In this document: positions 3,925-49,500 of the stretch, one piece after another
How positions within the stretch are numbered: position 1 is the stretch's first letter
Layout: each line of letters starts with the position of its first letter
Assembly: GCA_017462485.1 (NCBI GenBank)
Contig: JAFTRA010000006.1
Location: 1,275-65,274 of the forward strand
DNA from: Clostridia bacterium
GTDB lineage: Bacteria > Bacillota > Clostridia > Oscillospirales > CAG-272
Length of the DNA stretch: 64,000 bases
Direction of reading: 5' to 3'
Notes under the pieces: model-generated
Seen by the model: only the letters and a program-made list of their open reading frames with translations
What the model was told of the DNA's origin: nothing
Database searches by the model: none
Position numbers and translations under genes: made by a program

Positions 3925-4048
3925 AAAACCTCGGAGAGCGCCAACCGTTCCCGAGATCCAAACCTACTCATCTTCAGGAATTGGCACCTTATATACACAG
4001 GTTGCCGGGCTTCACAGGGCCAGTCCCTCCACCGCTCTTGATAAGGCT
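3925..4048 (-). promoter_or_regulatory. SAM-I (S-box) riboswitch with terminator expression platform
   Basis: The minus strand reads CCTTATCAAGAGCGGTGGAGGGACTGGCCCTGTGAAGCCCGGCAACC...GGTGCCAATTCCTGAAGATGAG. This matches the conserved S-box core: P1 CUUAUC/GAUGAG, GGAGGGACUGGCCC, GCAACC and GUGCCAAUUCC. It is followed by hairpin ATCTCGG...CCGAGGT plus a T-run, directly upstream of metK. Confidence 0.85.
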
Positions 4049-4227: not shown

Positions 4228-5466
4228 ATGTTCAGCGACTACGAATCGAGAAATTCAAAGCTTTTTTACTGCGCTAAGGGTTTTCTCATATTTCTCGCGT
4301 TCTTTGCAATTTCAAGGCTGACGTCTCTTATCACCATGCTGCAAGCCTTGCCCGTAAGAGAAGACCCTTCTCCCATATACGGAGCTCTACCGACTTTTGT
4401 AGTGTATCTTGTTTCTTTTGCTGCAGCAATTTTTATCTTCAATTCGGTATCGCTTGCCTTTGCCGTTTTTGATAAAGACGAGCTTCATAATTTTCTTATG
4501 CGAGAGGAAAAAGAAATTCATTTTTTCCGAGAAGTATCTGATATTCTTAAGACTCCTCACTTGCTTTTTGAAATCATAACCTCACTCGTTTGCTGCGCCA
4601 TAGCAGCGCTTTTGGGCGGTTTTTATGAGGTGGGCGGAATATTTTTCGAGAGCGCACACCGTTCGGGTTGGTTTCCGACGGTTATAATGCTTCCCCTATG
4701 CTTTATTCCCGCCGTTCTTTCAAAATACGAGGCAAGGCGCTACTGGTACAAACTTGAGAGAGAAAACACGCTTGATAAGGTCACAAAGCCTATAAGATTC
4801 TTCTTGAGACTTTCCCTGATATTTGTTCTGTACCCCACACTGTTCCCGCTTTCTCCGCTGCTCGCAGGAGCGATATACAGCATTTTCGCAATAATATTCA
4901 CTCTGTTTGGCGCTTTAACGGTTGTGGGGATCGTGGTAATTCTTGCGCTTATACCTATACTGTTCTTCGTTATTCCCTATCTTCGCTTTATAAAGAGAAG
5001 AAAGCGCTTCTTCAAAAAAATGAACAAAATTGCTATGAGCGAGGGATACGACGTAAGAGACGTAAAAAATCAGTACAACTACTTTATGAATTCTGGAAAG
5101 TGCTGCACTTTCGACTTAGCTCTTGAAGAAACCACCTATAACTGCCTGGTAATAAGCACGTCAAAAAGAAGCGTACCTCTTATATTTACTTCTCCGACAA
5201 GTGCTTATTTTGAACACAAGCTCGGAACAGACGATCATCATATATCGGTAAATCGAAATATAGATTTCTTTCTTCACGGAGACGGTATTAAAATCATAGT
5301 AGTATTACCGAGCCCGAAGCACGTTTACGTTACTGACGGAATAAAACGAAAAAGAATCTCTCAGGCGGATAAAATATGGGATTATACCGTTCACGATGAC
5401 GTATCCTTCCTTGGAGCTATGGACCGAAAATCGCTTCACCGAAACACCTACGGAGAATATCATTAA
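4228..5466 (+). CDS. Polytopic membrane protein with a C-terminal soluble domain, function unknown
   Basis: The ORF is 412 aa and has a GGAGG RBS. The N-terminal ~250 aa form several long hydrophobic segments, followed by a KRRKRFFKK stop-transfer motif. The C-terminal ~150 aa are soluble. I do not recognise a family. Confidence 0.6.
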   Translation: MFSDYESRNSKLFYCAKGFLIFLAFFAISRLTSLITMLQALPVREDPSPIYGALPTFVVYLVSFAAAIFIFNSVSLAFAVFDKDELHNFLMREEKEIHFFREVSDILKTPHLLFEIITSLVCCAIAALLGGFYEVGGIFFESAHRSGWFPTVIMLPLCFIPAVLSKYEARRYWYKLERENTLDKVTKPIRFFLRLSLIFVLYPTLFPLSPLLAGAIYSIFAIIFTLFGALTVVGIVVILALIPILFFVIPYLRFIKRRKRFFKKMNKIAMSEGYDVRDVKNQYNYFMNSGKCCTFDLALEETTYNCLVISTSKRSVPLIFTSPTSAYFEHKLGTDDHHISVNRNIDFFLHGDGIKIIVVLPSPKHVYVTDGIKRKRISQADKIWDYTVHDDVSFLGAMDRKSLHRNTYGEYH

Positions 5467-5480
5467 ATCCAAAAAAATTA

Positions 5481-5915
5481 TAGCCACCGGATAGCGTGAT
5501 ACTCTTAGCGGAGTATCACGCAGCTATATAAATCCCGTGCGGGATTTGCGATATACGCTCACGCGTGCGATATATCTTCGATGCGATATGCCCTGCGGGG
5601 CGTGAGGGGATTTATATCATATCGCGCTGAGCGGCTGGGGTTCCCCGAAACGAGCAAGGCGAGTTTTGGGGTTCGCAGCATAGCGAGGTTATATCGCATT
5701 CGCAAAGCGAATATATATTTCACAAGTGAATATATCGCCTGACAGAAAAAAGAGAGGACATTTCGGCTACGAACCGATTCGTTCTCTCTTTCTGTCGTTA
5801 TTAAGGGTTTGGGATTAGCCCATAATGCGTTTGTCCAGACAAATGCGATGCTCGCACTTAGTAGTGTTTTTTCAAATTCTCCGCTAAAAACCTCACCCTA
5901 TACTCCGGTGGCTAT
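5481..5915. repeat. Hairpin-dense non-coding element bounded by imperfect inverted repeats
   Basis: ATAGCCACCGGA at 5481-5492 is the perfect reverse complement of TCCGGTGGCTAT at 5904-5915. TTAGCGGAG is also the reverse complement of CTCCGCTAA. Inside there are at least 8 short GC-rich hairpins. The motif GCGATAT occurs three times forward (5548, 5567, 5583) and ATATCGC three times in reverse (5619, 5691, 5732). Confidence 0.5.
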
Positions 5916-5998: not shown

Positions 5999-7816
5999 TT
6001 AATAAACCTCAAAATTGAAAATGTGCGCCGTTGAGCTTCCGTAATCCTCTGTTTTCGTTTCACTGTGATACGTGCTCAAAGGAATAAAGCGTACTGCTTT
6101 TGCAACGGTATTCAGCTTATGCTTGACAAAGCGCTGATGATTATCGCTTATTTCAAGAACTCTATTCCATACGCCAAGTTCATCCATTACCTCTATAACG
6201 TAATGCTTAATAAGGCATTTGGGGAATCCAAATGACGTATTATTGTGGCTTTTCGGGAAAAAGAGCACCGACGTTGTATGCAAGCCGTCGGGGTTTCCCT
6301 CGGTATATTCTCTGTCAAGGTCACTGTCAAATACCAATCTGACTCCTTTTACAAGTGTTGGCTTCTCAAAGGAGTAGGTTATGGCTTTATTTGTCTTTCC
6401 AAAGTAACCGTTATCGCAGCCCCATATACGACGGTCTATGCCGTTTAAAAGCGCCGTGCAATCTCCGTAGTCGCAGGTAAGGGTTGCCGCAAGCGATAGC
6501 TCGGAGGGGGTACGGCGGAAGCCGGGTAAGAAGCAATCATCCTCAAGAAGAGCGTCTCTTATCTCTCCTATTTTTTCCCTTGCCGCCTCTCTCGGAAGCA
6601 TACCGTGCTTTACGGCAATAGCCGCTGCCGTACCTGCTGCCTGACCTATCACACCGATAGTTCCCATAACACGAGTCGAGCTGAACGCAACGTGCGAGGC
6701 GCTGATATTTCTTCCCGCAAACATAAGGTTATCAATATTAACCGAATACAATGAGCGAAGCGGGATTGAATAGGGCTCACTGAGTCGGCGCTTCTGCAAA
6801 TGCTTGCCGCCCTTTGCGTCCATATAGAAGCCGCCCGGCAGATGATTATCTATTTGCCAGCCTCCGTAAGCAACGGTATCCTCAAAGCGAGGACATTCTT
6901 CAACGTCACGCTGGGTAAGCACGTAGTCACCGACATATCTGCGGCTCTCGCGCTTGCCGGGGAGAAAGCTCACCCACTCAAGCTCCCAATTTTCAGCTCC
7001 GTGATCACCGTGATTTTTGATATGGTCCCAGACACCGAAGGCGATTTTCAAGAGCTCGTCCTTTATCTCTTCCGTATCGTCAATGGAGTTTTGCATTCCG
7101 CCAAGCTCTATCCAATAGAAATTGGTGTTTATAGCGTAAAGGTCGTGAGGCTTGTTTTTCATAGCGTTGTCATCGGGGAAATCGTATGCCCAAGCGGGAG
7201 GAGTATATTTTACGGGACTGTCTGTTTCTCTGCACTGAATGAGAATACTCATACCCATAGTGTGCGAGTCGGCTTCTTCAAGCCCGAATTCCTCACCGTA
7301 TTCGCTTTTGGCTTCTCTGCCAACCTTGTACTCGGCTCCCGTAAGCGGAGCGAGTATGCTGTCTCCCGAGCTGTCAACAAATATTTTTGCGTTTACCTTA
7401 TGCCACGTATAAGTCGTAAGCTGGAAGCCCTTTACACTACTGATTCTGCCCTCTTCCATCTCGGCATCACAGCAGGCGCAGTTCAAAATAAGCTCAATAT
7501 TCTCCTCAAAACGAACCATTTCGTAAAGCAGCGAATCCCAAATGCTGAAATTTCTTTTCGGATTGCGGTACATATTTTCGAGCTGAAGCTCTTCCATAAT
7601 TCCCGTTTCCTGAAGGTCACGCACACGAGTTCCCGCGCCCGATATCCACATTCTTATCTCACTGCTGGCATTACCTCCCAAAACGGGGCGGTCGTGCATC
7701 AGCACAACCTTTGCTCCGTGCCTTGCCGCAGAAATCGCGGTAAACATACCGCCTATACCGCCGCCAACCACGCATATATCCGCATTATGTACCTTGACTT
7801 TTAAAAGCTCTGACAT
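5999..7816 (-). CDS. FAD-dependent oxidoreductase (large FAD_oxidored-type family)
   Basis: The N-terminal dinucleotide-binding motif is DICVVGGGIGGMFTAISAARHGAKVVLMHDRPVLGGNASSE. The protein is 605 aa. Confidence 0.75.
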   Translation of the reverse strand: MSELLKVKVHNADICVVGGGIGGMFTAISAARHGAKVVLMHDRPVLGGNASSEIRMWISGAGTRVRDLQETGIMEELQLENMYRNPKRNFSIWDSLLYEMVRFEENIELILNCACCDAEMEEGRISSVKGFQLTTYTWHKVNAKIFVDSSGDSILAPLTGAEYKVGREAKSEYGEEFGLEEADSHTMGMSILIQCRETDSPVKYTPPAWAYDFPDDNAMKNKPHDLYAINTNFYWIELGGMQNSIDDTEEIKDELLKIAFGVWDHIKNHGDHGAENWELEWVSFLPGKRESRRYVGDYVLTQRDVEECPRFEDTVAYGGWQIDNHLPGGFYMDAKGGKHLQKRRLSEPYSIPLRSLYSVNIDNLMFAGRNISASHVAFSSTRVMGTIGVIGQAAGTAAAIAVKHGMLPREAAREKIGEIRDALLEDDCFLPGFRRTPSELSLAATLTCDYGDCTALLNGIDRRIWGCDNGYFGKTNKAITYSFEKPTLVKGVRLVFDSDLDREYTEGNPDGLHTTSVLFFPKSHNNTSFGFPKCLIKHYVIEVMDELGVWNRVLEISDNHQRFVKHKLNTVAKAVRFIPLSTYHSETKTEDYGSSTAHIFNFEVY

Positions 7817-40085: not shown

Positions 40086-40093
40086 AAAATAAA

Positions 40094-40292
40094 CCCGCAT
40101 AGGCCGTGTACAGCAAAAGTTTAACCCTGTTTGTACAGGTGGGTGCTCTCTCGGTTGCTTTGCGCTTCCAACGTCTCTCATAAGGGGTATAAAAACAGCC
40201 TTATTTGAGGAGGCCTGCATCCCGACAACCGAAGCCCAAGCTCCCCGGCAATGTGTGTAGGTCCAAATATGCCATATCACGCACCTCGCAGG
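40094..40292 (-). ncRNA. Candidate structured RNA of about 199 nt, either 6S-like or a cis-regulatory leader of the ATPase gene
   Basis: The 5' CCUGCGAGGUGCGUG pairs with the 3' CACGGCCUAUGCGGG at 12 of 15 positions, GU pairs included. The imperfect helix continues through UUUGGACCU/GGGUUAAA. There is an internal 9-bp helix CUUCGGUUG/CAACCGAGAG. A small hairpin, CCUGU-ACAA-ACAGG, sits on the 3' side of an internal loop. A U-tract and a terminator follow. No credible ORF is present. Confidence 0.4.
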
Positions 40293-40306
40293 AAATCCTG
40301 ATTCAA

Positions 40307-45766: not shown

Positions 45767-46720
45767 TCATTCTATATTTTTATAAATACCCATCGCAGAG
45801 TACGTATCGGCAAAAATCGAAAGATAAGTGAGAAGCTCGGTAAAGGAGCTGCCGCCATCCTTCAGTATTACCGAAAAATATGAATTTTCATTCTCACGTT
45901 CATCCTCAAAGGTGTTTATTCTGAAAACGGATAATCCAAAATATTCCGAAACCGTCAAAAGCTCGCCAAGCGAAACAGACGAATCGCAGCTTACGTTAAT
46001 TTCAAGATATCTGTCCGTATTTTCGCTTATTTCGGGAATTTTGAAGCCCCTACTGACAAGCGCATACTTCATATCCGCCGTTCCCTCAAATCCGAAAACG
46101 GGAGTTACCGCTACGATTTTCAAATCCAGCCTTGATATAAGATTATAAATGCCCGGTATTCTCATACCTGCGCGCTCTTCAAACGGCAAAATACAGTACC
46201 CGGCCTTTCCGTCGGCAACGGCGAAGCAGGCTTCCTTAAAGCTATCGGAATACAAAACCCTCGGTGAGTCAAATTCTTGCGAGAAAACGTCGTAAGCCTC
46301 GTCGGAAAGAGAGTTTCTTACGTAAATGAAGCTTTCCTTTGCTCCGCTCTCTTCAAGAAAGTCCTTTTCCGAAGCATTTATGCCATTATCCCTAAGCTTT
46401 TCTAACAGCAGCGTGGAAAAATTGGCTTTATCAACACCCTTTAAGAAGGACAAAAACCTCGCCACAGCTTTCCCGCTCTCGTTTGGAGAGCTATCTTCGG
46501 TCAACGAATTTTCAGCGCCAAGCTCATCTGACAGAAGCGCAGCAATTTCCGAAACGCTCATTCCGTCCTCAACCAGCGAGACGGCAGAGGCGGCTATTTT
46601 TTCCGCAGCAAAGCTCATTTCACAGATGCGCATTTCAAGATTCTCACCCTGACGGCAGGAAAGATACGAAAGGTTTTCATCTGTTACACTGCTTATCTCG
46701 AAAATCCGCTCTTCTCTCAT
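45767..46720 (-). CDS. Hypothetical protein with a divergent prephenate-dehydratase/ACT-like C-terminal half
   Basis: Weak resemblance only. FAVADGKAGYCILPFEERAGMRIPGIYNLI compares with the PDT segment aV..g.adygvvPiENs.eG.v. The tail (YFSVILKDGGS) is ACT-like. Confidence 0.35.
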   Translation of the reverse strand: MREERIFEISSVTDENLSYLSCRQGENLEMRICEMSFAAEKIAASAVSLVEDGMSVSEIAALLSDELGAENSLTEDSSPNESGKAVARFLSFLKGVDKANFSTLLLEKLRDNGINASEKDFLEESGAKESFIYVRNSLSDEAYDVFSQEFDSPRVLYSDSFKEACFAVADGKAGYCILPFEERAGMRIPGIYNLISRLDLKIVAVTPVFGFEGTADMKYALVSRGFKIPEISENTDRYLEINVSCDSSVSLGELLTVSEYFGLSVFRINTFEDERENENSYFSVILKDGGSSFTELLTYLSIFADTYSAMGIYKNIE

Positions 46721-46847
46721 AGCTCTGCCTCTCTTTCACTAAAAGTCGCTATTCTCGCATAAAATATTTTACCAGATAAATTATACAACATCATACGCTA
46801 AATTACAATAGACATTTTTATTTTTCCAAAAAATTTCTTAAAAGATA

Positions 46848-46876
46848 TTGATTTTTTCCTCTTTCTATGATATAAT
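46848..46876 (+). promoter_or_regulatory. Sigma-A promoter of tRNA-Leu
   Basis: TTGATT, a 17-nt spacer, then TATAAT. Confidence 0.6.
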
Positions 46877-46897
46877 CTTCGTTGTGTTAAGAAATAT

Positions 46898-46984
46898 GCC
46901 GGTGTGGTGGAATTGGCAGACGCCCGGGACTCAAAATCCCGTGTTCGCAAGGACGTGCGGGTTCGACCCCCGCCACCGGCACCA
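46898..46984 (+). tRNA. tRNA-Leu (anticodon CAA), class II with long variable arm, CCA encoded
   Basis: The acceptor stem is GCCGGTG/CACCGGC, the anticodon arm is CGGGA-CTCAAAA-TCCCG, the variable arm is TGTTCGCAAGGACGT and the T arm is GCGGG-TTCGACC-CCCGC. The discriminator is A, followed by CCA. Confidence 0.95.
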
Positions 46985-46989
46985 AAAAA

Positions 46990-47017
46990 GTCGTATCATC
47001 CTGGTACGACTTTTTTT
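46990..47017 (+). terminator. Intrinsic terminator after tRNA-Leu
   Basis: The hairpin is GTCGTA-loop-TACGAC, followed by TTTTTTT. Confidence 0.65.
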
Positions 47018-47020
47018 ATC

Positions 47021-47420
47021 CAAACCGCAGGTTTGGCATACCATCCGATTTTGACGAGCATATCTCGACAAAATCGAGTATATCATCAGCCCTTAAGGGC
47101 TGGATATCATCACGGCATAGCCGTGTATAACTTTTCCTGCGGTTTGATGATATACCGCAACAAGTTGCGGATGATATACAAGACTCCGTCTTGATGATAT
47201 GCAACGGCAAGCCGTTGATTTAGATGCATACCGCTTGTGATATCTTGCGCCATACGTCGTGTCCGACCGACGAATAGCAAATATACAAGGCTTGCGCCTT
47301 GATAATCAAGCAAAGCCAAGTCGTCAAGCTTGCTTGTCAGCGAGGATGCGAAGATTGCTCTGTGAGCGTTGCATTCATGCAACATAGCACATAGTGCCAA
47401 CGCGTTTTGCGTTGAAGCTC
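47021..47420. repeat. Array of about 15 short variable GC-rich hairpins separated by AT-rich spacers carrying a recurring GATGATAT motif
   Basis: Example hairpins are CAAACC-GCA-GGTTTG, AGCCC-TTAA-GGGCT, ACGGC-ATA-GCCGT, CCGCAAC-AA-GTTGCGG, AACGGC-AA-GCCGTT, AAGGC-TTGC-GCCTT, GTTGCAT-TC-ATGCAAC and CAACGC-GTTT-GCGTTG. GATGATAT occurs at 47146, 47170 and 47193. Its reverse complement occurs at about 47079 and 47103. Spacing is mostly 23-24 bp. Confidence 0.6.
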
Positions 47421-47453
47421 ACAAATAGTATTTAATACCAAAGAGGTGATATT

Positions 47454-47795
47454 GTGCCCAAAAACTATTTATTGATATATTCAGAGCAACTTGCAACTGA
47501 AATAGAGCTGCTTTGTCAAAGCATAAAAGCACCGTCAAATACTATGTTCCAAATCCGAAAAAGTTCAAGCAGTATTTACGCTAATATTCGCGAAGCAAAT
47601 TACGGACAGAGTAAGTCTGATATGGTTTCAAAGTTTGAAATTGCTCTAAAAGAATGCAGTGAAACAGAAGGTTGGCTCAAATTGTTATTTAACACTAACG
47701 TCATAGATGAAAAAACATTCAAAAAGTTACGTAATCTTTGCGGTCGCATAAGACGAATGCTGATTTCAAGTTGTAAGACTTTAAAAGAAGCATAA
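47454..47795 (+). CDS. Four-helix-bundle protein (23S rRNA intervening-sequence protein / Avd-like family)
   Basis: The 113-aa helical product contains SSSIYANIREANYGQSKSDMVSKFEIALKECSETEGWLKLL, which matches the family signature (s..aNIaEG......kd...fl.iA.gS..E....l.l). The start is GTG with an AGAGGTGA RBS. Confidence 0.75.
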   Translation: MPKNYLLIYSEQLATEIELLCQSIKAPSNTMFQIRKSSSSIYANIREANYGQSKSDMVSKFEIALKECSETEGWLKLLFNTNVIDEKTFKKLRNLCGRIRRMLISSCKTLKEA

Positions 47796-47811
47796 ACAGG
47801 AAGGTTATACA

Positions 47812-49500
47812 ATGAATTTACTGGGAAAAGCAACCGATCCTGCCTTTTGGTCGGACACGGTTAGAAATAACGATTGCTATAGGGGATATCTTGAAGAAAG
47901 GCACGAGGACTGGAACAAATACTGCGAAAATCAGCCGATAACCGAGGCAAAATACAAGGATTTCAAGCAGTTCTTCGTCACGGGTGACAGAAGCGCATTT
48001 GAGAGCGTGTACTTCTTCCGCAGAGCGCAGCTTGCGACATCGGCTGTTATGGCGCTTATTTATCCCGAAGAGGAAAAGTACATAGATTTCCTTAACGATA
48101 TAATCTTTGCTATATGCAACGAATATACCTGGAGCGTTTCGGCTCATCACCCGAAGCTTGAGGCTTACGATAAGACGTTTATTGACCTTTTTGCCGCTGA
48201 AACTGGATTTGCCCTCGCTGAAATATACACTATTTTCGGCGATAGGCTGGATACTCTGATAAGAGAACGTATAAGGGTCGAAATAAACGAACGAATTATA
48301 GACTCGTTTATGAGCGAGAGATACTTCTGGTGGGAGAAGAGATGCACTAACAACTGGACCGCTGTTTGCGGGGGCTCTGTCGGCGCGACGTTTATGCTTA
48401 TGCGCCCCGAGCTGTTCCCTACGGTTAAGCCGAGGCTCGACAAGCTTATGGAAGCCTTTCTTTCGGGCTTCTGCTCTGACGGATACTGCCTTGAGGGTAC
48501 GAGCTACTGGCACTACGGCTTCGGATACTTTATTACCTATGCGGATATGTTAAAAATCTTTACGGGCGGAAACGAGGACTATTTCAGGCTTGAAAAGGTA
48601 AAGAATATAGCGACGTTCCTTCAAAAAATGTTCCTTACGGAAAAGTGCGCCGTATCCTTTGCCGACGGCGAATCTACTCTTAGATATCATATAGGAATAC
48701 TGCACTACCTCAAAAAGCTTTACCCAAGTGACGTCAAGGTATATTCCCCGAAACTTTCCTATTACAGAGACGCTTGCTTCCGCTTTGCGCTTCTTCTTCG
48801 CTCGGCTACGTGGCTTGACGAGGATATTTATAACAATCCCGAGCCCGACGGAAATGACGCCGAGTACTATGCCGAGGAATCAAAGTGGTACGTTAAGAGA
48901 AACGAAAGCTACGGTTTTGCCGCCAAGGCGGGATTCAACAACGAGCATCATAATCACAATGACGTCGGCACGTTCATATTCGCAAAATGCGGAAAGCAGC
49001 TCATAACCGATATGGGCAAGGGCGTTTATTCGAAGCAATATTTCAGAAAAGAGACGAGATATTCCTCGTTCATTGAATGCTCCTCTATGGGACATAGCGT
49101 ACCATATTTTGACGGTATCGAACAGAAGTTCGGAGATGAATACTCGGCAAGCGACGTTAAATATTCTAAAGACTGCTTATCTATGGATATCGCAGGAGCT
49201 TACGGTGATGAGAGAATAAGGAGCGTGAAGCGAGTATTTCTTGCAAAAAATGACAGCGTTACTGTAAGGGATTCTTTCGACGTAAGCGACGGAATAGGTA
49301 TAACCGAAAGACTCGTTTCCCTTTATCAGCCAAAGATTCTTGACGGCTCCGTTAAAATCGAGTCGTGCGAGATATTCTTTGATAAAAGCGTCTGCGACGT
49401 GGCTTGCACAAAGACCGAAAAGAGTGACGGTAAGTCGGTTTATCTTATCGACTTTAAGATTCGGGCTGGCGAGCGAGCATTTGAAATTACAATTAAATAA
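47812..49500 (+). CDS. Heparinase II/III-like family protein (putative polysaccharide lyase)
   Basis: The 562-aa product has an alpha/alpha-toroid-like N-terminal half. The central motif is NNEHHNHNDVGTFIF, matching the H.H.D.G.F motif typical of the family. Confidence 0.7.
   Translation: MNLLGKATDPAFWSDTVRNNDCYRGYLEERHEDWNKYCENQPITEAKYKDFKQFFVTGDRSAFESVYFFRRAQLATSAVMALIYPEEEKYIDFLNDIIFAICNEYTWSVSAHHPKLEAYDKTFIDLFAAETGFALAEIYTIFGDRLDTLIRERIRVEINERIIDSFMSERYFWWEKRCTNNWTAVCGGSVGATFMLMRPELFPTVKPRLDKLMEAFLSGFCSDGYCLEGTSYWHYGFGYFITYADMLKIFTGGNEDYFRLEKVKNIATFLQKMFLTEKCAVSFADGESTLRYHIGILHYLKKLYPSDVKVYSPKLSYYRDACFRFALLLRSATWLDEDIYNNPEPDGNDAEYYAEESKWYVKRNESYGFAAKAGFNNEHHNHNDVGTFIFAKCGKQLITDMGKGVYSKQYFRKETRYSSFIECSSMGHSVPYFDGIEQKFGDEYSASDVKYSKDCLSMDIAGAYGDERIRSVKRVFLAKNDSVTVRDSFDVSDGIGITERLVSLYQPKILDGSVKIESCEIFFDKSVCDVACTKTEKSDGKSVYLIDFKIRAGERAFEITIK

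What the first reader, a model, noticed from the sequence alone, without database searches (positions are those of the whole stretch)
47021..47420. Array downstream of tRNA-Leu with variable hairpins and a conserved spacer motif (CRISPR-inverse or iteron-like)
About 400 bp of non-coding DNA consists of about 15 short, mutually unrelated GC-rich hairpins. Stems are 5-7 bp and loops 2-5 nt. The hairpins are separated by AT-rich spacers of about 10 nt. An 8-mer, GATGATAT, recurs five times: three direct copies at 47146, 47170 and 47193, and two inverted copies at 47079 and 47103. Spacing is mostly 23-24 bp, about two helical turns.

The logic is the opposite of CRISPR, because the conserved short motif separates variable palindromes. 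It looks more like iterons, or a centromere- or operator-like protein-binding array, or a concatenation of terminator-like hairpins. It sits exactly where integrative elements usually land, at a tRNA 3' flank, and immediately upstream of an Avd-like four-helix-bundle gene. A second region at 5481-5915 has the same grammar with a related GCGATAT motif, which argues for a real class of element rather than chance.
Basis: seen in the sequence. Interest (0 to 1): 0.6.

Follow-up and report, generated by a model that had tools for sequence, protein, structure and literature searches.

The report
tRNA-flanking word-and-hairpin DNA array
The odd stretch behind tRNA-Leu is a real copy of a widespread, unexplained repeat of gut and rumen Clostridia, a relative of the orphan "Gut-1" motif: small perfect hairpins joined by a fixed 8-letter word, starting right after a tRNA gene and often followed by a small four-helix-bundle gene.

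Summary
GATGATAT occurs five times in 121 bp (two inverted, three direct, 23-24 bp apart), between about 14 small perfect hairpins.

Only window 46985-47220 is the element proper:
- a two-way terminator starting directly after the CCA of tRNA-Leu(CAA);
- a first hairpin;
- three [hairpin + ATATCATC] units;
- an 11-nt segment complementary to the first hairpin;
- three [GATGATAT + hairpin] units.

Window 47221-47420 is a patchwork of other tRNA-flank repeats. It separates the array from a PF05635 (Avd-like) gene.

The same architecture occurs in at least 120 public contigs, mostly Clostridia, and in 39 of 201 sampled genomes of the family. It lies behind 25 kinds of tRNA and tmRNA, always in the same orientation. 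The hairpins are stock modules shared between genomes, so this is not an inverse CRISPR. Nothing supports iterons.

Rfam's Gut-1 model does not match it; it is a sister with a different word.

Stems are 99% Watson-Crick with almost no G:T pairs. GNA/GNRA loops lie on opposite strands in the two arms. This favours a folded-DNA site over an RNA.

The genome has no reverse transcriptase or RAYT. PF05635 is enriched but optional. Function is unknown.

This scan has noted the same class before in over 70 other genomes.

The parts
46898..46984 (+). tRNA-Leu(CAA) gene with encoded CCA. The element starts at the next base.
   Evidence: ARAGORN; Rfam tRNA, 49.3 bits. A promoter-like TTGATT-17-TATAAT (TG directly upstream of the second hexamer) lies at 46848-46876.
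46985..47019 (.). Two-way intrinsic terminator: A5, stem 46990-46995/47005-47010, T7, then the start of the conserved ATCCA junction.
   Evidence: Read from the sequence. About 60 of 72 related loci show the same layout...CC|A5-7, hairpin, T5-8, ATCCA. The same terminator hairpin occurs behind different tRNAs.
47020..47036 (.). First hairpin hp1 (CCAAACC-GCA-GGTTTGG). Its 5' half plus loop (47021-47031) is complementary to 47136-47146.
   Evidence: There are 8 covarying variants of this pairing in 33 related arrays: 1.1 mismatches of 12 within an array against 4.1 between arrays.
47038..47125 (+). tRNA-proximal arm: degenerate word ATACCATC (47038), long hairpin 47046-47076, ATATCATC (47080), hairpin 47087-47102, ATATCATC (47104), hairpin 47111-47125.
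   Evidence: In relatives the loops of this arm are mostly G..A on the + strand.
47136..47146 (.). Segment s3 (CCTGCGGTTTG), which closes the proximal arm by pairing with hp1.
   Evidence: The minimum-energy folds of the + strand as DNA and RNA and of the - strand as DNA contain this 11-bp helix; the - strand RNA fold does not. Covariation; a compensatory change in G014.
47146..47220 (-). Distal arm: GATGATAT at 47146, 47170 and 47193, each followed by a hairpin (47155-47170, 47179-47193, 47202-47217), ending in TTGATT.
   Evidence: In relatives the loops are T..C on the + strand, that is GAA/GCA/GCAA on the - strand. In 11 of 72 related copies TTGAYW is the -35 of a consensus outward promoter.
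47221..47420 (.). Patchwork spacer. 47245-47281 is a piece of a 158-nt tandem repeat found behind tRNA-Val. 47301-47360 is a piece of a 285-nt tandem repeat found behind tRNA-Ser. Further small hairpins follow. In canonical copies this stretch is absent.
   Evidence: BLAST to the own genome; TRF and inspection; comparison with canonical cassettes; fold z only -3.5.
47454..47795 (+). PF05635 (23S rRNA intervening-sequence protein, Avd-like four-helix bundle) gene, 113 aa, GTG start.
   Evidence: Pfam E = 4.6e-20. PDB 2RLD E = 7e-16, five chains in the entry. It is 79-88% identical to genes that follow GATGATAT arrays in 13 other genomes.
5481..5915 (.). Second region: a GCGATAT/ATATCGC array (3 direct, 3 inverted) plus other repeat modules, bracketed by the 12-nt inverted repeat ATAGCCACCGGA/TCCGGTGGCTAT followed by a T-run.

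Best explanation
Window 46985-47220 is one copy of a modular, non-coding DNA element of gut and rumen Clostridia. It is a sister of the Gut-1 motif with the word GATGATAT in place of GTGAAAT.

The element begins at the base after the CCA of a tRNA or tmRNA gene. It consists of:
- its own two-way terminator;
- a first hairpin;
- two oppositely oriented arms of about three [mini-hairpin with GNA/GNRA loop + ATATCATC] units;
- in intact copies, an outward promoter that drives a variable first gene.

Here that gene is a PF05635 four-helix-bundle gene. About 190 bp of other tRNA-flank repeat debris now separates it from the array.

Most likely the array works as DNA rather than RNA. It would be a set of extrudable hairpins plus a constant word, forming a recognition platform for a trans-acting protein. 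This would mark the head of small cassettes that carry no recombinase of their own and accumulate behind tRNA genes. The nearest analogues are attC sites, arm-type sites and REP/BIME clusters.

Shown here: the architecture, its spread, the flush tRNA junction, the strict Watson-Crick pairing and the mirrored loop bias. Inferred: action at the DNA level, mobility, and protein binding.
For: **Architecture**
- It recurs in at least 120 public contigs and in 39 of 201 sampled genomes of the family, against 0 of 201 for the reversed-pattern control.
- The dominant layout is ATATCAT x3 then ATGATAT x3.

**tRNA junction**
- A tRNA or tmRNA of 26 kinds ends 53-64 nt before the first word at most of the 42 of 90 mirror arrays that have one nearby.
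- The side carrying the closing repeat equals the tRNA side in 35 of 35 cases.
- The junction is flush with CC|A-run, and the same terminator hairpin lies behind different tRNAs.
- The same tRNA-Leu(CAA) flank in other genera is empty or holds arrays with other words.

**DNA rather than RNA**
- 1791 of 1812 stem pairs are Watson-Crick, with only 7 G:T.
- Loops are GAA/GCA/GNRA-type on the + strand in the proximal arm and on the - strand in the distal arm.
- The array lies between a terminator and, in 11 of 72 copies, a consensus promoter at a fixed offset, against 0.06 expected.
- Single-stranded DNA fold z is -9.7 and -10.0.

**Cassette behaviour**
- In 5 of 34 related loci a copy of the tRNA tail (18-58 nt) bounds the array-plus-cargo unit. 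Cassettes also stack.
- The first downstream gene is diverse: PF05635 in 5 of 52.

**Possible protein partner**
- PF05635 clade and upstream word co-vary across 30 loci.
Against: - An RNA role is therefore not excluded.
- Hairpin covariation fits RNA as well as DNA.
- The two-way terminator suggests that something is transcribed towards the tRNA on the - strand.
- No recombinase, reverse transcriptase or HUH transposase is linked to the arrays.
- This window has no tRNA-tail repeat, and no empty orthologous site could be found. Mobility of this copy is therefore not shown.
- 25 array-bearing genomes lack the cognate PF05635 clade, so that protein cannot be an obligatory partner.
- The clade-word correlation could reflect linkage by descent alone.
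Confidence: 0.45

Rival explanations
1. It is a structured non-coding RNA, a Gut-1-like sRNA or a leader of the PF05635 mRNA. The hairpins and the long-range helix fold in the transcript, possibly bound by the PF05635 protein as Avd binds DGR RNA.
For: - Gut-1 was classed as a likely RNA (PMC2864571).
- Hairpins and the hp1:s3 helix covary.
- RNA fold z is -7.3 and -8.3.
- GNRA-type loops are common in RNA.
- PF05635 genes usually have an array just upstream.
- The two-way terminator would end a - strand transcript exactly at the tRNA border.
Against: - G:U-type pairs are almost absent: 7 of 1812.
- The favourable loops lie on opposite strands in the two arms, so no single transcript carries both arms in the good orientation.
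- On the + strand the array lies after a strong terminator and before the promoter.
- Most arrays have no PF05635 gene.
- No Rfam family matches.
Confidence: 0.25
2. It is a REP/BIME-like extragenic palindrome cluster kept by the host. It would serve as a boundary behind heavily transcribed tRNA genes, for example as a supercoil or gyrase site, a transcript-end protector, or an insulator between terminator and next promoter. It would spread by recombination rather than by any dedicated mobility.
For: - Position at 3' ends of tRNA, tmRNA and other genes, between terminator and promoter.
- Arms in alternating orientation and mosaic make-up with other repeat families.
- Many copies per genome.
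- Perfect DNA palindromes.
- No transposase is needed.
Against: - No RAYT in the own genome, and no association with Y1_Tnp across 201 genomes.
- Unlike REPs, the constant part is the linker, and each hairpin in an array is different.
- tRNA-tail direct repeats around some cassettes point to site-specific insertion.
- Nothing here tests gyrase binding or topology.
Confidence: 0.2
3. It is an iteron, centromere or operator array of a plasmid-like or integrated replicon.
For: Short constant words recur at about 23-24 bp in direct and inverted sets.
Against: - No rep, par or integrase genes nearby.
- The element lies on chromosomal contigs behind 25 kinds of tRNA and tmRNA.
- It is absent from 72,556 plasmid and 50,697 phage records.
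- IMG/VR pattern hits are coding tandem repeats; 4 of 200 have hairpins.
- The palindromic spacers and strand-biased loops would be unexplained.
Confidence: 0.03

Closest known systems
Gut-1 RNA motif (Rfam RF01706; Weinberg et al. 2010, PMC2864571)
   Same: - The grammar is the same: three small hairpins with 3-4-nt loops, separated by a constant 7-8-nt purine-rich word (alignment).
- The host group is the same: uncultured gut Clostridia.
- True Gut-1 copies (GTGAAGT words) occur in this genome, and one lies in mirrored form directly upstream of another PF05635 gene.
   Different: - The word is GATGATAT, not GUGAAAU.
- The Rfam model gives no hit at E <= 10 on this locus and only 18-24 bits on its two sister loci, against a cut-off of 50.
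- Rfam describes one arm as an sRNA. Here the unit is a two-armed element with its own terminator, a closing helix and a tRNA-flush junction. The evidence favours DNA.
- The arm order is opposite to the mirrored Gut-1 copies: word-after-hairpin units come first.
REP/BIME clusters of Enterobacteria and Pseudomonas (with RAYT transposases)
   Same: - Extragenic clusters of short DNA palindromes in alternating orientation.
- Position at 3' ends of transcription units.
- Mosaic make-up with other motifs and many copies per genome.
   Different: - No RAYT/Y1_Tnp gene in this genome, and no association across the family.
- The conserved part is the linker word, and each hairpin in an array is different.
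- The junction is fixed at the tRNA CCA end.
Integron attC sites, and arm-type sites of tRNA-integrating islands
   Same: - Structure is conserved more than sequence, and it is strand-specific.
- It heads small cassettes with variable cargo that stack at one site.
- Some related cassettes are bounded by direct repeats of the tRNA 3' end.
   Different: - No integrase was seen next to the arrays.
- There is no R''/L''/L'/R' organisation.
- Most loci, this one included, lack a detectable tRNA-tail repeat.
- 25 different tRNAs and tmRNA serve as sites, which no single known integrase does.
23S rRNA intervening sequences carrying a PF05635 ORF, and DGR Avd
   Same: The adjacent gene belongs to the same protein family. 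That family is repeatedly found with inverted-repeat nucleic-acid structures.
   Different: - This locus is not in an rRNA gene.
- There is no reverse transcriptase in the genome.
- The ORF lies outside the inverted arms, not between them.

Membership tests
Gut-1 RNA (RF01706) | Covariance-model score at or above the gathering cut-off (50 bits) | tested here: not met
   No Gut-1 hit at E <= 10 on window 46700-47900. The genome-wide scan lists neither window array. The sister loci C17 and C18 score 24.5 and 18.2 bits.
Gut-1 RNA (RF01706) | Three short hairpins separated by the constant linker GUGAAAU | tested here: inconclusive
   The hairpin-linker grammar and unit size match. The linker, however, is GATGATAT.
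Gut-1 RNA (RF01706) | Functions as a transcribed small RNA | not testable with these tools
The scarcity of G:U pairs and the mirrored loop bias argue against it.
REP/BIME with RAYT | A RAYT (Y1_Tnp, PF01797) gene in the genome, typically flanked by the repeats | tested here: not met
   No PF01797 match in the own genome, which is 98% complete. The array-richest relatives (G097, G070, G159, G205, G111) have none.
REP/BIME with RAYT | Extragenic clusters of short palindromes in alternating orientation at 3' ends of transcription units | tested here: met
CRISPR array | Identical repeats of 24-48 nt separated by unique spacers of similar length, usually with cas genes | tested here: not met
   The constant part is 8-12 nt. 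The 'spacers' are 13-17-nt palindromes shared between genomes. No CRISPR repeat family matches the array: the only hit, CRISPR-DR6 at 17.7 bits (cut-off 39), lies at 47770-47797 inside the PF05635 gene.
Plasmid iterons / partition centromere | Array adjacent to a rep or par gene on a replicon | tested here: not met
   The neighbours are phosphoglucomutase, a TSCPD protein, PF05635, a 562-aa protein with only a sub-threshold heparinase II/III match, and a beta-lactamase-fold protein. No plasmid or phage match.
tRNA-integrated genomic island | Direct repeat of the tRNA 3' end at the distal boundary | tested here: not met
   No copy of the tRNA-Leu tail anywhere else in the window. Such a repeat is present in 5 of 34 related loci.
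tRNA-integrated genomic island | Integrase gene inside the element | tested here: not met
   None among the five flanking genes.
Diversity-generating retroelement (Avd context) | Reverse transcriptase plus TR/VR repeats near the Avd-like gene | tested here: not met
   No RVT_1 match in the whole genome.

The most novel reading that the evidence does not exclude
Word-and-hairpin arrays are folded-DNA recognition sites of a new cassette system that carries no recombinase of its own and docks at the last base of tRNA and tmRNA genes. PF05635 four-helix-bundle proteins are their word-specific readers, with each protein clade matched to its own word. This would give a function both to the orphan Gut-1 motif and to the long-unexplained 23S-IVS/Avd-like protein family.
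Probability: 0.2. Interest if true: 0.85.

Novelty: new variant of a known kind. Interest (0 to 1): 0.55.

Why it matters
Gut-1 has been an orphan motif since 2010, and PF05635 (23S rRNA intervening-sequence protein, Avd-like) has had no function outside DGRs since 1993.

This locus belongs to a large family that ties the two together and ties both to the exact 3' end of tRNA genes. It also carries signs (strict Watson-Crick stems, GNA loops on opposite strands) that the catalogued "RNA" may really be a DNA structure.

If the arrays are docking or recognition sites, they would define a new way in which small gene cassettes, promoters and terminators are distributed in abundant gut and rumen Clostridia. 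The idea can be tested directly with gel shifts, cruciform probing and strain comparisons.

Tried and rejected
- **Rfam.** Searches at the gathering threshold and at E <= 10 found only the tRNA, 6S RNA and a SAM riboswitch elsewhere. No ROOL, GOLLD, OLE or Gut-1 hit on the array.
- **Word-to-word pairing.** Pairing of ATATCATC with GATGATAT as nested helices was rejected. The covarying hp1:s3 helix encloses only the proximal arm, so such pairing would be a pseudoknot. Single-arm arrays also exist.
- **tRNA-tail duplication at this locus.** None found.
- **Retro-mobility.** No RVT_1 in the genome.
- **RAYT/HUH mobilisation** (a lead from an earlier scan note). No Y1_Tnp in the genome and no association across the family.
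- **PF05635 as an obligatory trans partner.** Rejected: 25 array-bearing genomes lack the cognate clade.
- **Plasmid or phage carriage.** No matches. IMG/VR pattern hits are coding tandem repeats.
- **Empty-site comparison.** Attempted through the downstream 562-aa gene. It failed because the gene has no syntenic orthologue in the 40 genus genomes searched.

Full report
**1. The observation**

GATGATAT lies on the + strand at 47146, 47170 and 47193, and as its reverse complement at 47080 and 47104. The window holds eight copies against 2.4 expected, and none of 100 dinucleotide shuffles reaches eight. The whole 2.23-Mb genome holds 158 copies, or 0.071 per kb. Five copies in 121 bp cannot be chance.

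Between 47020 and 47414 there are 14 perfect hairpins with stems of 4-7 bp. As single-stranded DNA, 47016-47218 folds with z = -9.7 on the + strand and -10.0 on the - strand. As RNA the values are -7.3 and -8.3. The stretch 47219-47420 reaches only -3.5.

The second region is also real. GCGATAT is direct at 5548, 5567 and 5583, and inverted at 5619, 5691 and 5732.

**2. Anatomy**

tRNA-Leu(CAA) ends with CCA at 46984. The order after it is:
- five A, a terminator stem (46990-46995 with 47005-47010), seven T, then AT;
- hairpin hp1, CCAAACC-GCA-GGTTTGG (47020-47036);
- a degenerate word, ATACCATC;
- a long hairpin, ATATCATC, a hairpin, ATATCATC, a hairpin;
- an AT-rich spacer;
- CCTGCGGTTTG (47136-47146);
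- three GATGATAT words, each followed by a hairpin;
- TTGATTTAGA.

The segment 47136-47146 is the complement of the 5' half plus loop of hp1 (47021-47031). This 11-bp helix closes the tRNA-proximal arm in the minimum-energy folds of the + strand (DNA and RNA) and of the - strand as DNA.

**3. A family within this genome**

A search for chains of at least three perfect hairpins spaced 5-12 nt apart found 60 chains, against 7 in a shuffled genome. Those with repeated linkers fall into at least five word families:
- ATATCAT(C);
- ATATCGC;
- ATTCCAT;
- GTGAAGT, which is Rfam Gut-1 proper, with three copies over the 50-bit cut-off;
- GTTATGA.

The three ATATCATC arrays are C17, C18 and this one. 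Each starts 37 nt after a tRNA (Leu-GAG, Gln-UUG, Leu-CAA) and each has the same orientation.

The eight ATATCGC arrays are not near tRNAs. The window's second region and C2:13491-13647 are bracketed by a 10-12-nt inverted repeat followed by a T-run. They therefore appear to sit inside a split terminator stem.

**4. A family outside this genome**

The three-word pattern occurs in at least 120 contigs of the GTDB species set. Nearly all are Clostridia MAGs (Acutalibacteraceae, Oscillospiraceae, Christensenellaceae) from ruminant and other guts.

In 201 sampled genomes of the family, 39 carry TGATGATAT-hairpin-TGATGATAT. None carries the reversed control pattern. In the genome contigs, 121 of 168 pattern matches have hairpins in both spacers. 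In IMG/VR only 4 of 200 do; the viral hits are coding tandem repeats. Plasmid and phage collections give no match.

The dominant layout is ATATCAT x3 then ATGATAT x3. Of 90 mirror arrays, 42 have a tRNA or tmRNA gene nearby, and in most of these it ends 53-64 nt before the first word. These genes are of 26 kinds. The side carrying the hp1/s3 closing repeat is the tRNA side in 35 of 35 decidable cases.

In about 60 of 72 loci the junction reads ...CC|A5-7, hairpin, T5-8, ATCCA, hp1. Identical terminator hairpins occur behind different tRNAs in different genomes. The terminator therefore belongs to the element, not to the tRNA.

The hp1:s3 complementarity covaries in eight sequence variants. It shows 1.1 mismatches of 12 within an array against 4.1 between arrays.

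Behind tRNA-Leu(CAA) in other genera the flank is empty in four cases. In one case it holds a mirrored Gut-1 (GTGAAAT) array, and in one an ATGATAT array with the opposite arm order.

**5. Not an inverse CRISPR**

The hairpins differ from each other within an array but come from a shared stock. CAAAAC.TTC.GTTTTG occurs 16 times and CAATTCC.TGC.GGAATTG 12 times. The window's CCGCAA.CAAG.TTGCGG occurs 5 times in the 76 arrays analysed and repeatedly in the family scan. Each hairpin starts with CA and ends with TG, so the constant unit is really about TG-ATGATAT-R-CA.

**6. DNA or RNA?**

Of 1812 stem pairs in 277 hairpins, 1791 are Watson-Crick. Only 7 are G:T and 2 are A:C. Such a low wobble fraction would be unusual for a selected RNA helix (my own knowledge).

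Loops are strongly strand-biased, and in opposite senses in the two arms:
- In the proximal arm the + strand reads GAA, GCA, GTA, GTCA, GTTA.
- In the distal arm the + strand reads TTC (54), TGC (18), TTGC (13), TTAC, TAC, TCC. On the - strand these are GAA, GCA, GCAA, GTAA, GTA, GGA.

The unit is therefore [hairpin with GNA/GNRA loop + ATATCATC], present on the + strand in one arm and on the - strand in the other. No single transcript carries both arms in that form.

C-GAA-G and C-GCA-G triloops are the classic extra-stable DNA mini-hairpins. This rests on my own knowledge of Hirao and colleagues' work from the 1990s, not on a check made here.

On the + strand the array lies after a strong terminator. 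In 11 of 72 copies a consensus promoter, TTGAYW-N16-18-TAHAAT, starts 13-15 nt after the last word, against 0.06 expected. That position argues against + strand transcription of the array.

Two points leave an RNA role open. The A-run before the terminator hairpin makes the terminator two-way, so - strand transcription into the array cannot be excluded.

**7. The neighbouring gene**

Window 47454-47795 encodes a PF05635 protein (E = 4.6e-20). Its nearest solved structure is 2RLD, an entry with five chains. It carries the family motif described in PMC3936711 in the form QxxKxxxSxxxNxxE.

The genome has seven PF05635 hits, five of them full length. Four of those five have an array 44-267 nt upstream, each with a different word: GTGAAGTT, GTTATGA, GATGATAT and ATGGAAT.

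Across 30 family loci, protein clade and upstream word co-vary:
- 79-99% identity to the window protein goes with ATATCAT/GATGATA, in 12 of 13 loci with enough upstream sequence;
- 65% goes with TATGGAA;
- 58% goes with CATCATT;
- 52-55% goes with GTGATAT, in 5 of 5;
- 50% goes with GTTATAT, in 2 of 2;
- 49-50% goes with ATGAAAT or GTGAAAT, in 3 of 3.

The dependence runs one way only. Just 5 of 52 public GATGATAT arrays are followed by PF05635; the other first genes are diverse. All 14 genomes with the window-type protein have the array, but 25 array-bearing genomes lack that protein. The protein is therefore enriched, optional cargo. It may be a word-specific binder, but linkage by descent alone could produce the correlation.

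**8. What is unusual about this copy**

In canonical cassettes the last hairpin ends in TTGATT. This serves as the -35 of a promoter about 60 nt before the PF05635 start.

Here about 190 bp (47221-47420) are interposed:
- 47245-47281 matches a 158-nt tandem repeat behind tRNA-Val. It occurs in the own genome at C2:61.7 kb and in G007, where each unit ends in a copy of the tRNA-Val tail.
- 47301-47360 matches a 285-nt tandem repeat behind tRNA-Ser on C39.

No consensus promoter remains in front of the gene, and its start codon is GTG.

**9. Mobility**

*For mobility:*
- The same element subtype, terminator included, lies behind many different tRNAs.
- The same tRNA carries different subtypes, or none, in different genomes.
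- Cassettes stack (L082, L086, L093).
- In 5 of 34 loci the array-plus-cargo unit is bounded by a direct repeat of the tRNA tail. In L057 the repeat is 18 of 18 nt. In L121 it is a 58-nt partial tRNA-Ala, followed by another terminator and a Gut-1-type array.

*Against, or still missing:*
- This window has no tail repeat.
- No integrase is adjacent.
- The genome has no RVT_1 and no Y1_Tnp.
- Y1_Tnp is not associated with arrays across the family.
- No orthologous empty site could be found, because the downstream 562-aa gene has no syntenic orthologue in the genus genomes searched.

**10. Verdict**

The finding is real. It is a new word-variant of the Gut-1 kind of element, seen here in its full two-armed, tRNA-flush form. 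The best-supported reading is a folded-DNA recognition module that heads small tRNA-docked cassettes (confidence about 0.45). A structured RNA (0.25) and a REP/BIME-like host boundary element (0.2) are the live rivals. Iterons and an inverse CRISPR are not supported.

Earlier notes of this scan describe the same class in more than 70 other genomes. I re-derived the main points independently. One earlier lead, a RAYT-type transposase, is not supported for this family.

Noticed in passing
window 5481-5915: The second array region lies between convergent genes (4228-5466 on +, 5999-7816 on -). It is bracketed by ATAGCCACCGGA / TCCGGTGGCTAT followed by a T-run, as if about 410 bp had been inserted into the loop of a two-way terminator. 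C2:13491-13647 shows the same with AGCCTTCTCA/TGAGAAGGCT. Seven other ATATCGC loci showed no such bracket at the borders I assumed.
   Followed up: partly
window 5743-5898: A roughly 150-bp module next to the GCGATAT array recurs at 81-94% identity at about 15 other places in the genome. Several copies lie at contig ends, so it breaks the assembly. Its nature was not determined.
   Followed up: no
window 47245-47281; L317 (G000:C2:61600-62200); L316 (G007:C28:77900-79000): A 158-nt tandem repeat lies behind tRNA-Val(GAC). Each unit carries its own terminator and, in G007 (L316), ends in a copy of the tRNA-Val tail; in the own genome (L317) the tail copy was seen only at the end of the repeat block. 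A 37-nt piece of it is embedded between the array and the PF05635 gene in the window.
   Followed up: partly
L318 (G000:C39:8900-9760); window 47301-47360: A 285-nt tandem repeat (1.8 copies) lies behind tRNA-Ser(GCU). A 60-nt piece of it (90% identity) sits in the window's patchwork spacer.
   Followed up: partly
G097 contigs C1, C2, C4, C25: One family genome has 37 pattern matches. It has runs of more than 10 tandem GATGATAT-hairpin units, often with the same hairpin repeated and lying at contig ends. Arrays can therefore expand by unit duplication.
   Followed up: no
L121 (tRNA-Ala locus) and L057 (tRNA-Arg locus): The order is full tRNA, GATGATAT-array cassette with cargo, then a direct repeat of the tRNA 3' end (58 nt in L121, 18 nt in L057). 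In L121 a second terminator and a Gut-1-type (ATGAAAT) array follow. This looks like stacked site-specific insertions.
   Followed up: partly
L144-L172: PF05635 protein clades and the word of the array just upstream co-vary across at least six word types. Similar words (GATGATAT, GTGATAT, GTTATAT) go with the more similar proteins.
   Followed up: partly
L004 (G019) and L118: Arrays built from ATGATAT words also exist with the opposite arm order (words first, then their complements). They are enclosed by their own closing inverted repeat and lie directly behind tRNA-Leu(CAA).
   Followed up: no
G000:C17:31640-31690 and C18:167780-167830; L030, L032, L025: Several arrays are followed, just after the distal arm, by a degenerate T-arm-like stretch (for example CGTGGGTTCGAGTCCATACG). 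It does not match the tail of the neighbouring tRNA.
   Followed up: no
window 40088-40297 (-) and 3965-4047 (-): An ordinary 6S RNA (69 bits) and a SAM-I riboswitch (68.5 bits) were found by Rfam.
   Followed up: no
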